DNA of 64,000 nt from Eledone cirrhosa (taxonomy: Eukaryota), in NCBI GenBank assembly GCA_964016885.1, contig OZ024743.1:79794001-79858000 (forward strand). Direction: 5' to 3'. The notes under the pieces were generated by a model that searched no databases, had not been told where the DNA came from, and saw only the letters and a program-made list of their open reading frames with translations. Positions 33,843-36,135 of this stretch are shown piece by piece (the first letter of the stretch is position 1; each line of letters opens with the position of its first letter). The translations under genes and the position numbers were made by a program.

Positions 33843-34040
33843 TATATATATATATATATATATATATATATATATATATATATTGGAATAAATGCTCTGA
33901 AATAGCGATATATATGTGAATATAGACATAGAATATTCGAAAATATTCTGTATGTTTATAATAAACATTTTGAAGACCTAATCGCTATAGAATAGAATAC
34001 GTCACGTATTACAATTAGATTCTCGATAAAAGCAAGGGAA

Positions 34041-34083
34041 GTAATCTACGCGTTTCATTCTTGTTAGAAATCATCAGGACTAC
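34041..34083 (-). ncRNA. Minimal type-I hammerhead ribozyme (identical copies at 34351-34393 and 34654-34696)
   Basis: Exact reverse complement of 35215-35257. Confidence 0.88.
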
Positions 34084-35214
34084 ATATCCAGTGCTTTTAT
34101 CGAGAATGACACAGCTAGAGACTTATAGAATACTTAGCTGTGTACAGGAACTGGTTTGAAAGAGCGGTTGCCGGTCCGGCAGAAATTAGAAATTGGAATA
34201 AATGCTCTGAAATAGCGATATATATGTGAATATAGACATAGAATATTCGAAAATATTCTGTATGTTTATAATAAACATTTTGAAGACCTAATCGCTATAG
34301 AATAGAATACGTCACGTATTACAATTAGATTCTCGATAAAAGCAAGGGAAGTAATCTACGCGTTTCATTCTTGTTAGAAATCATCAGGACTACATATCCA
34401 GTGCTTTTATCGAGAATGACACAGCTAGAGACTTATAGAATACTTAGCTGTGTACAGGAACTGGTTTGAAAGAGCGGTCCGGCAGAAATTAGAAATTGGA
34501 ATAAATGCTCTGAGATAGCGATATATATGTGAATATAGACATAGAATATTCGAAAATATTCTGTATGTTTATAATAAACATTTTGAAGACCTAATCGCTA
34601 TAGAATAGAATACGTCACGTATTACAATTAGATTCTCGATAAAAGCAAGGGAAGTAATCTACGCGTTTCATTCTTGTTAGAAATCATCAGGACTACATAT
34701 CCAGTGCTTTTATCGAGAATGACACAGCTAGAGACTTATAGAATACTTAGCTGTGTACAGGAACTGGTTTGAAAGAGCGGTTGCCGGTCCGGCAGAAATT
34801 AGAAATTGGAATAAATGCTCTGAAATAGCGATATATATGTGAATATAGACATAGAATATTCGAAAATATTCTGTATGTTTATAATAAACATTTTGAAGAC
34901 CTAATCGCTATAGAATAGAATACGTCACGTATTACAATTAGATTCTCGATAAAAGCTTTTATCGAGAATCTAATTGTAATACGTGACGTATTCTATTCTA
35001 TAGCGATTAGGTCTTCAAAATGTTTATTATAAACATACAGAATATTTTCGAATATTCTATGTCTATATTCACATATATATCGCTATTTCAGAGCATTTAT
35101 TCCAATTTCTAATTTCTGCCGGACCGGCAACCGCTCTTTCAAACCAGTTCCTGTACACAGCTAAGTATTCTATAAGTCTCTAGCTGTGTCATTCTCGATA
35201 AAAGCACTGGATAT

Positions 35215-35257
35215 GTAGTCCTGATGATTTCTAACAAGAATGAAACGCGTAGATTAC
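35215..35257 (+). ncRNA. Minimal type-I hammerhead ribozyme (identical copies at 35525-35567 and 35835-35877)
   Basis: GTAGTC CTGATGA T TTCT AACA AGAA T GAAA CGCG TA GATTAC: stem I GUAGUC/GAUUAC, stem II UUCU/AGAA, palindromic stem III ACGCGU, GUA cleavage triplet. Confidence 0.88.
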
Positions 35258-36135
35258 TTCCCTTGCTTTTATCGAGAATCTAATTGTAATACGTGACGTA
35301 TTCTATTCTATAGCGATTAGGTCTTCAAAATGTTTATTATAAACATACAGAATATTTTCGAATATTCTATGTCTATATTCACATATATATCGCTATTTCA
35401 GAGCATTTATTCCAATTTCTAATTTCTGCCGGACCGGCAACCGCTCTTTCAAACCAGTTCCTGTACACAGCTAAGTATTCTATAAGTCTCTAGCTGTGTC
35501 ATTCTCGATAAAAGCACTGGATATGTAGTCCTGATGATTTCTAACAAGAATGAAACGCGTAGATTACTTCCCTTGCTTTTATCGAGAATCTAATTGTAAT
35601 ACGTGACGTATTCTATTCTATAGCGATTAGGTCTTCAAAATGTTTATTATAAACATACAGAATATTTTCGAATATTCTATGTCTATATTCACATATATAT
35701 CGCTATTTCAGAGCATTTATTCCAATTTCTAATTTCTGCCGGACCGGCAACCGCTCTTTCAAACCAGTTCCTGTACACAGCTAAGTATTCTATAAGTCTC
35801 TAGCTGTGTCATTCTCGATAAAAGCACTGGATATGTAGTCCTGATGATTTCTAACAAGAATGAAACGCGTAGATTACTTCCCTTGCTTTTATCGAGAATC
35901 TAATTGTAATACGTGACGTATTCTATTCTATAGCGATTAGGTCTTCAAAATGTTTATTATAAACATACAGAATATTTTCGAATATTCTATGTCTATATTC
36001 ACATATATATATATATATATACATATATATATATATATATATATACATACATATATATATATATATATATATATATATATATATATATATATACATATAT
36101 ATATATATATATATATATATATATATATATATATG

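What the first reader, a model, noticed from the sequence alone, without database searches (positions are those of the whole stretch)
33882..36010. 2.1-kb spacer-less palindrome of 310-nt units with six hammerhead ribozymes: candidate viroid-like retrozyme system
Seen: three identical minimal type-I HHRs on each strand at 310-nt spacing (one 303), pointing outward from the axis at 34955/34956, with no ORF and (TA)n on both sides. Known: tandem units of a few hundred nt with minimal HHRs and a palindromic stem III are the architecture of metazoan non-LTR retrozymes and PLE terminal repeats; these cleave as dimers and can yield circular RNAs. Inference: read-through in either direction meets three sense HHRs and could release 310-nt monomers or circles, while the full transcript could fold into a roughly 1-kb dsRNA. 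The arms differ (7-bp deletion near 34478 and A>G at 34514 only on the left), which argues against a simple fold-back artefact.
Basis: partly seen in the sequence, partly recalled or inferred. Interest (0 to 1): 0.88.

Follow-up and report, generated by a model that had tools for sequence, protein, structure and literature searches.

The report
Two-armed retrozyme insertion, Penelope-style
This palindrome is one of about 1,260 young insertions of a non-coding, hammerhead-bearing 310-nt repeat that mostly sit in (TA)n as two outward-facing arms with two fixed, unequal ends, likely made when a Penelope-type enzyme primes both target strands on one, probably circular, RNA.

Summary
It is not a unique viroid-like system. 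It is one insertion of a young non-LTR retrozyme family with at least 12,258 units and about 1,260 insertions.

Of 111 insertions examined, 87 were complete and two-armed, always with the hammerheads facing outward. In 86 of 87, one arm ends near unit position 165 and the other near 130-139; the exception is a seed artefact. This matches the Penelope-like element (PLE) 'tail'. Inner junctions are mostly asymmetric, so the window's perfect axis is a rarity (2 exact matches genome-wide).

Arrays are largely clonal: 18 one-locus variants are fixed in every unit of both arms. Hammerhead helices covary across diverged subfamilies (18 of 27 pairs). Neptune-type PLEs in the same genome show the same two-end design.

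Best model (inferred): a PLE enzyme primes both strands of a staggered cut, at two internal sites of one RNA that is usually a circular monomer. Three loci point to oligomeric templates. Cleavage, circles and expression are untested, and no helper element was found. Near-identical hits in other organisms are likely carry-over.

The parts
33843..33883 (.). left (TA)n target remnant
33882..34956 (-). left arm: about 3.5 units, sense on the minus strand, outer end at unit position 165 ('long' end; position 1 = first base after the cleavage site)
33882..33907 (-). 'tail' (unit 140-165), present only at the long end
34041..34083 (-). type I hammerhead (helix I to helix I)
34351..34393 (-). type I hammerhead
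34654..34696 (-). type I hammerhead
34478..34514 (-). left-arm-only 7-nt deletion and one substitution, not mirrored in the right arm
34942..34969 (.). inner junction: both arms stop at unit 14-16 and share GC; it lies at the base of the unit's own long stem (unit 14-28 with 250-264)
34955..36010 (+). right arm: 3.4 units, sense on the plus strand, outer end at unit 132-139 ('short' end, blurred by ATATATAT)
35191..35279 (+). hammerhead (35215-35257; cleavage predicted after 35251) inside an extended, covarying stem
35306..35416 (+). conserved domain that holds both end sites (unit 55-165), with a predicted hairpin; putative RT-initiation domain
35525..35567 (+). type I hammerhead
35835..35877 (+). 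type I hammerhead
36003..36134 (.). right (TA)n target remnant

Best explanation
The locus is one insertion of a non-coding hammerhead retrozyme family, likely written into (TA)n by a Penelope-like RT/GIY-YIG protein that primes both target strands on one, probably circular, RNA. Shown in sequence: two outward arms, one end at unit ~165 and one at ~130-139, (TA)n targets, a ~12-bp duplication where it can be read, clonal arrays, and a covarying ribozyme fold. Inferred steps: (1) Sense multimers from some loci self-cleave as double hammerheads and are ligated to 310-nt circles. (2) A PLE protein, probably a dimer, makes a staggered cut with ~12-nt 3' overhangs. (3) Each 3' end primes reverse transcription at one of two internal sites 26-35 nt apart. 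(4) Each RT runs round the circle for an independent number of turns (0.4-27 units seen). (5) The two cDNA ends are joined at short microhomologies or with small inserts, and the second strands are filled in. The window's perfect axis is a case where both RTs stopped at the base of the long stem.
For: Polarity: all 87 complete two-armed insertions are antisense-then-sense; no inward-facing cluster appears in the lists. Ends: 86 of 87 have one long and one short end, and the exception (L103) was long. 50 of 50 outward end pairs on C1:1-158.6 Mb are long+short (overlaps the 87). Forward-strand counts genome-wide are 628 long and 635 short. Both end sites recur in a ~25%-diverged older family. 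Arms are independent: the long-end arm is longer in 47 and shorter in 38 of 86; junctions within 6 nt of symmetry occur in 4 of 85 unascertained loci (chance ~3.6); 68 minor variants are unmirrored though covered by the other arm. Target duplication: a clean 12 bp at L111, and 11-14 bp compatible at L040, L043, L044, L097 and L114, of 30 examined. Monomer bottleneck: 34 distinct variants are fixed in both arms, 18 of them in one locus only; 56 of 66 insertions of 6 or more units have no partial variant. 975 crossings of the cleavage site show no unit-to-unit indels, and arms do not stop there in excess (4 against 6.3 expected). RNA-level constraint: 18 of 27 pairs change on both sides in 15 sequences, with 0 of 500 shuffles as high; 0 of 37 fixed variants hit the catalytic core against 7 of 126 singles (not significant alone). 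PLE link: RT+GIY-YIG ORFs with a CxxxCxxC linker have the same two-armed, one-tail, (TA)n design (L081, L085, L087, L082, L090). PMC11167929 shows a PLE protein cutting and extending both strands, with two internal RT starts that define the tail.
Against: No RNA evidence: cleavage, circles and expression are untested. No autonomous element sharing the unit was found: 0 of 50 GIY-YIG loci carry it as their own terminal repeat, out of 10,597 candidates. The best geometric match (Neptune 'B', ends 124 and 164 nt after its hammerhead-like site) has no sequence similarity beyond shuffles. Three loci (L170, L182, L202) show unit-specific features at the same index in both arms. That fits one shared template, but an oligomeric one, or later conversion between arms. 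The longest arrays show repeated variant patterns, so later local duplication does occur (L037, L038, L176/L177). 19 of 111 calls are single-armed. Some are artefacts (an N gap, a clipped or too-short second arm), but roughly 15% may truly have one arm. Unmirrored variants could have arisen after insertion. PMC11167929 found hammerhead cleavage dispensable in vitro. Nearly all loci examined come from the first 170 Mb of contig C1.
Confidence: 0.68

Rival explanations
1. Same dual priming by a PLE enzyme, but the template is an uncleaved linear multimeric transcript of an existing clonal array, and circles play little part.
For: Mirrored features in 3 of 86 loci, including a switch of haplotype at the same index in both arms of L202. 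Clonal parents would give clonal daughters. PMC11167929: unprocessed RNA was the dominant substrate in vitro.
Against: 18 one-locus variants are fixed in all units of both arms, against 3 mirrored loci. Arms reach 27 units while typical arms have 4-5. The ribozyme fold is kept by compensatory change.
Confidence: 0.17
2. Self-priming or fold-back: one cDNA is made and then folds back to copy itself, the model proposed for PLE head-to-head repeats in PMC3846280.
For: The window and L045 have perfectly symmetric axes. Junction microhomology of 2 nt or more is seen in 15 of 20 overlap junctions, against 18% by chance.
Against: Neither end class is always the shorter arm (47 against 38). Symmetric junctions occur at the chance rate. 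68 covered variants are unmirrored. In L170 each arm holds sequence that the other lacks.
Confidence: 0.07
3. Monomers or pLTRs insert first, and the arrays grow later in place by unequal crossover (the model in the Discussion of bioRxiv 10.64898/2026.07.22.740005).
For: Repeated variant patterns in a few long arrays (L037, L038, L176/L177). The older family is mostly one or two units per arm.
Against: Private variants are fixed across both inverted arms. Only 10 of 66 long insertions have any partial variant. Divergence is very low (single substitutions 3.3e-4 per base). The model explains neither the polarity nor the end rule.
Confidence: 0.05
4. The palindrome is an assembly or library fold-back artefact.
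For: The window's axis is spacer-less, and no long read across it could be examined.
Against: Fixed polarity, two fixed unequal ends, target duplications and varied junctions in 87 loci. The arms differ. The same axis occurs on another contig with different arm lengths.
Confidence: 0.03

Closest known systems
Metazoan non-LTR retrozymes (Cervera & de la Pena 2020, PMC7229834; Li et al. 2026, bioRxiv 10.64898/2026.07.22.740005)
   Same: 170-400-nt non-coding tandem units, each with a type I hammerhead. Short palindromic helix III as in axolotl HHR_Amex1 and a U.U pair in helix II as in HHR_Amex2. Thousands of copies, with PLEs in the same genome.
   Different: The text I read describes head-to-tail arrays only, with no fixed ends, tail, inverted arm or target duplication. 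PMC7761336 says the repeats show no motif that points to a helper. Their circles were shown experimentally; here they were not.
EN+ Penelope-like elements, Neptune/Nematis type (Craig et al. 2021, PMC8557442; Arkhipova et al. 2013, PMC3846280)
   Same: Partial tandems, an inverted 5'-truncated copy, a 30-40-bp tail at one end only, microsatellite targets and a hammerhead in the repeat.
   Different: No ORF. Both arms are long arrays. No autonomous family sharing the sequence was found. The data favour dual priming over the self-priming proposed in PMC3846280.
Poseidon of Anolis in vitro (Frangieh et al. 2024, PMC11167929)
   Same: Both strands cut and extended, AT-rich targets, two internal RT start sites bounding the tail downstream of the hammerhead, and a predicted dimer.
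   Different: That paper saw no difference in start site between strands and does not pair one start with each end of an insertion; here the pairing is nearly strict. It found hammerhead cleavage unnecessary in vitro.
Non-autonomous Chlamys elements such as MRC1 (PMC8557442)
   Same: Non-coding PLE passengers with multicopy head-to-tail insertions.
   Different: They share 3' sequence with autonomous families, and their clade lacks canonical hammerheads.
L1 twin priming (recalled, not read here)
   Same: Two target 3' ends prime on one RNA, giving outward-facing arms joined at microhomology.
   Different: In L1 it is a minority outcome with a variable second primer site; here it is the rule, with two fixed sites and multi-unit arms.

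Membership tests
non-LTR retrozyme | tandem units of about 170-400 nt | tested here: met
   310 nt; 308-311 in subfamilies
non-LTR retrozyme | type I hammerhead in each unit | tested here: met
   core in all six units; covariation in helices I-III; Rfam only below threshold
non-LTR retrozyme | no protein-coding capacity | tested here: met
   no ORF of 150 aa or more; the 30 older relatives show no linked PLE ORF apart from weak 21-27% hits in one locus. LTR, PBS and PPT were not searched for
non-LTR retrozyme | many dispersed genomic copies | tested here: met
   4,208 + 4,254 + 3,796 exact cores; about 1,260 insertions
non-LTR retrozyme | self-cleavage as monomer or dimer | not testable with these tools
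   prediction only
non-LTR retrozyme | expressed as monomeric linear and circular RNA | not testable with these tools
   no RNA holder listed
PLE-mobilised element | inverted 5'-truncated copy next to the main copy | tested here: met
   87 of 111 insertions complete and two-armed
PLE-mobilised element | 30-40-bp tail at one end only | tested here: met
   ends 26-37 nt apart in 86 of 87; 50 of 50 pairs
PLE-mobilised element | AT-rich or microsatellite target with short duplication | tested here: met
   TA-rich on both sides in 26 of 30; 12-bp duplication at L111
PLE-mobilised element | shares its terminal repeat with an autonomous RT/GIY-YIG family | tested here: inconclusive
   not found in 50 of 10,597 candidate loci
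autonomous PLE | ORF with RT and GIY-YIG | tested here: not met
viroid-like replicon with ribozymes in both polarities | self-cleaving motif on both strands of the monomer | tested here: not met
   the hammerhead pattern matches only the sense strand of each unit; no other ribozyme family matches
viroid-like replicon with ribozymes in both polarities | RNA-to-RNA replication | not testable with these tools
   no RNA data

The most novel reading that the evidence does not exclude
Each array is a snapshot of one event: a Penelope-type RT dimer doing double rolling-circle reverse transcription of a single ribozyme-made RNA circle, one subunit from each of two fixed start sites. That would explain the PLE tail, the inverted repeat and the tandem in one step, show that animal circRNAs are copied straight into kilobase palindromes, and possibly record A-to-I edits of the circle in the genome.
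Probability: 0.45. Interest if true: 0.8.

Novelty: new variant of a known kind. Interest (0 to 1): 0.62.

Why it matters
How PLEs make their tandem, inverted and tailed insertions is still described as undefined (PMC8557442). That retrozymes are copied from circles by PLE enzymes is a hypothesis without insertion-level evidence in the papers I read (PMC7229834, PMC7761336, bioRxiv 10.64898/2026.07.22.740005). This very young family gives more than a thousand nearly unmutated insertion products, two mapped start sites and a 310-nt template, so both questions become directly testable. It argues against self-priming and against growth in place as the main routes here. It also means the genome holds over a thousand kilobase-scale inverted repeats that could yield dsRNA. 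A circle-templated, both-strand insertion reaction would interest people who build RNA-guided insertion tools.

Tried and rejected
Horizontal transfer or a free circular replicon in other organisms. One search listed 20 runs (16 studies, 17 organism codes) holding 0.76-1.00 of the unit's words. I laid 7 of the 24 listed runs, 5 of them holders. X10 and X12 each hold one closed 310-nt contig with a single difference, but both differences are large subfamilies of this genome. Raw genomic reads X21 and X22, with the same organism code as X12, gave 0 of 12.8 million reads each (no positive control in those runs). X12, X1 and X4 also carry this genome's high-copy SINE, and X2 covers the unique flank without a difference, so it is probably the source species. 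Trace carry-over explains X12 and X1. X4 looks like a SINE-rich relative with the unit at trace depth and is unresolved. No RNA holder was listed, which is not evidence either way.

The DNA search of the genome with the unit returned nothing because common words are skipped.

Helper search. The GIY-YIG scan, 50 loci and the pattern for diverged relatives found only non-coding relatives and unrelated PLE ends. The hammerheads near L081/L085/L090 and L086 belong to other small families.

My first structure string for the start-site domain was out of register. The corrected test shows only modest covariation (2 of 13 pairs). The bacterial promoter scan is not relevant to an animal genome. The earlier-findings look-ups returned nothing. 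The excess of inner ends at unit 12-30 (22 of 195, p=0.004) was tested after seeing the data and is affected by seed ambiguity in the internal inverted repeat, so it is only a hint.

Full report
Observation. There are two 310-nt arrays meeting at 34955/34956, six identical hammerhead cores facing outward, (TA)n on both sides, and two differences confined to the left arm. Below, unit position 1 is the base after the predicted cleavage site (window 35252). The ribozyme has a 6-bp helix I, a 4-bp helix II with a U.U pair at its base, and the self-complementary ACGCGU as helix III. It sits inside a 15-bp stem (unit 14-28 with 250-264). The circular monomer folds better than shuffles (z = -4.6). 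In a two-unit fold, helix III is predicted to form between units (p = 0.81) and not within one.

A large, young family. The window lies in a 3.0-Gb animal genome. The repeat landscape reminds me of an octopod; that is recalled and was not tested. The 35-nt core has 4,208 exact matches, and two one-letter variants add 4,254 and 3,796, so there are at least 12,258 units. Forward-strand counts of the two end types are 628 and 635 (the reverse counts are inflated by overlapping matches), which gives about 1,260 insertions as a lower bound. I fetched 110 stretches: 13, and 77 chosen by an end motif. All are on the first 170 Mb of C1 except L045. With the window they gave 111 insertion calls. Single substitutions occur at 3.3e-4 per base.

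One architecture. Of the 111 calls, 87 were complete and two-armed, 4 were cut by the stretch, 1 had no arm over 80 nt, and 19 were single-armed. Some of the 19 are artefacts: L035 ends in an N gap, and L146 has a short second arm. All 87 read antisense arm, junction, sense arm. In 86, one outer end lies near unit 165-167 and the other near 130-139. The exception, L103, is a chance seed match and was scored long. Pairing the listed ends by coordinate gave 50 of 50 long+short pairs, with 44 ends unpaired (the set overlaps the 87). Both flanks are TA-rich in 26 of 30 loci. Where the target is not pure TA, a duplication is visible: 12 bp at L111, and 11-14 bp compatible at five more of 30.

The arms are independent products. 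The long-end arm is longer in 47 loci and shorter in 38. Near-symmetric junctions occur at the chance rate (4 of 85). Junctions mostly show 1-10 nt of overlap or a small insert, and one captured 272 nt. Of the minor variants lying where the other arm also has cover, 68 are not mirrored. A fold-back copy would make one end class always the shorter arm and would mirror errors, so self-priming is unlikely here. Read from each flank inward, both arms have cDNA polarity, which is what priming from both target strands gives.

One template, mostly a monomer. Over 304 kb there are 149 locus-variant events fixed in all units. In 86 simple two-armed loci, 34 distinct variants are fixed in both arms, and 18 of these are seen in one locus only. 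56 of 66 insertions with six or more units have no partial variant. A new variant spreads to every unit of both arms most simply if one monomer is copied repeatedly. The cleavage site is crossed 975 times without unit-to-unit indels; only locus-wide insertions at position 2 and a few substitutions occur. Arms do not stop there in excess. This fits a circle better than jumps between cleaved linear monomers. Against a pure circle model, L170, L182 and L202 show unit-specific features at the same index in both arms, which points to oligomeric templates or later conversion. L037, L038 and L176/L177 show later local duplication.

RNA structure is under selection. An older family about 25% diverged (803 pattern matches) is also non-coding, often two-armed, and uses the same two end sites. 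Across 15 sequences, 18 of 27 named pairs of the hammerhead and its long stem change on both sides. No shuffle of 500 reaches that, and slid controls fall to 4-5 pairs. Helix III stays self-complementary or nearly so with different letters (4 of 15 perfect, 4 more with one mismatch). The start-site hairpin shows only modest covariation (2 of 13 pairs). Among fixed substitutions, A>G on the RNA strand makes up 11 of 34 (7 of 22 rare ones), against 7 of 101 singles (Fisher p = 0.0035). Nine of the 11 sites are predicted paired, so this could be A-to-I editing of the template or simply selection for changes tolerated as G.U. I cannot separate the two.

The PLE link. The genome has 10,597 GIY-YIG candidates. 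Long ORFs carry RT, then a CxxxCxxC linker, then GIY-YIG, the layout of the Neptune and Nematis clades in PMC8557442. These elements are themselves two-armed in (TA)n with a tail at one end: 63 nt in family A (L081, L085, L087) and about 40 nt in family B (L082, L090). Family B's ends lie 124 and 164 nt after its hammerhead-like site, close to the unit's spacing, but the sequences do not align beyond shuffles. The helper remains unidentified after 50 loci.

Other organisms. Twenty runs under 17 organism codes hold the unit nearly unchanged. The controls point to carry-over from this species rather than transfer; details and the unresolved runs are under Tried and rejected.

Literature. What I saw: PMC7229834, search passages and the Discussion; bioRxiv 10.64898/2026.07.22.740005, parts 1-3 of 5 (through the Discussion; supplements closed); PMC11167929, parts 1-2 of 4; PMC8557442, PMC3846280, PMC4209133 and PMC7761336, search passages only. 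L1 twin priming and strong RNA editing in cephalopods are recalled. Inverted copies, tails and microsatellite targets are known for PLEs, and tandem type I hammerhead repeats are known as retrozymes. Searches found no paper describing two-armed retrozyme arrays, the one-start-per-end rule, or dual priming as a PLE model. They cover only open-licence PMC and bioRxiv, I read no supplements, and Repbase and Dfam could not be searched, so the family may already be catalogued.

Verdict. This is a real non-LTR retrozyme by every sequence feature I could test, with cleavage and circles untested, and it works like a PLE passenger. My odds are about 0.9 for PLE-type mobilisation, 0.8 for priming from both strands, and 0.65 for a circular monomer as the usual template. 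The window locus itself is likely a dead-end dsRNA source, because read-through would pair the ribozymes with the antisense arm. The value lies in the family as a clean record of the insertion mechanism. Novelty: new variant of a known kind. Interest 0.62.

Noticed in passing
window 47080-48148: Decayed two-armed palindrome (arms 89% alike) of another hammerhead family with ~510-nt units (core at +47792). Younger copies at L086 7718-9001 and in L101.
   Followed up: partly
window 28527-28956: Two-armed palindrome (arms 85% alike) with a tRNA-like sequence in each arm (28663-28734 minus, 28776-28847 plus), TA runs on both sides and about 35 extra nt on the left. It may be a tRNA-derived SINE inserted the PLE way.
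   Followed up: partly
window 28976-29300: End of a Neptune family B element on the minus strand, with its hammerhead-like site, abutting (TA)n; recognised by eye.
   Followed up: no
L081 620-830; L085 7495-7738; L090 6130-6330: A further small two-armed family in (TA)n with a hammerhead whose helix II resembles this unit's and with ends about 70 nt apart.
   Followed up: partly
L047 2449-2871; L116-L145: Older ~315-nt relatives of the unit, in several subfamilies; some have changed core letters such as UUGAUAA.
   Followed up: yes
L038 2899-3170: 272 nt of unrelated GC-rich sequence captured between the two arms; no match in the other loci held.
   Followed up: partly
L202: Two haplotypes in one insertion, switching at the same unit index in both arms.
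   Followed up: partly
L176/L177 (C1:97461501-97476453): About 15-kb insertion with over 40 units in one arm and repeating variant patterns, suggesting later expansion.
   Followed up: partly
L106, L108, L114, L186, L190, L196, L207, L218: One-base insertion two bases after the cleavage site, fixed in all units of these loci; it changes helix I pairing.
   Followed up: no
L054-L090 (Neptune family B ends): The hammerhead-like motif has UUGAAAA and GCAAC in place of the usual core boxes in all copies listed.
   Followed up: no
window 9865-21195, 22038-23953, 38492-44769, 48778-50734: Long satellites with 20-, 50-, 29- and 64-nt units.
   Followed up: no
window 5049-6483 and 31732-32367: Reverse-transcriptase fragments on the minus strand (RVT_1).
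   Followed up: no
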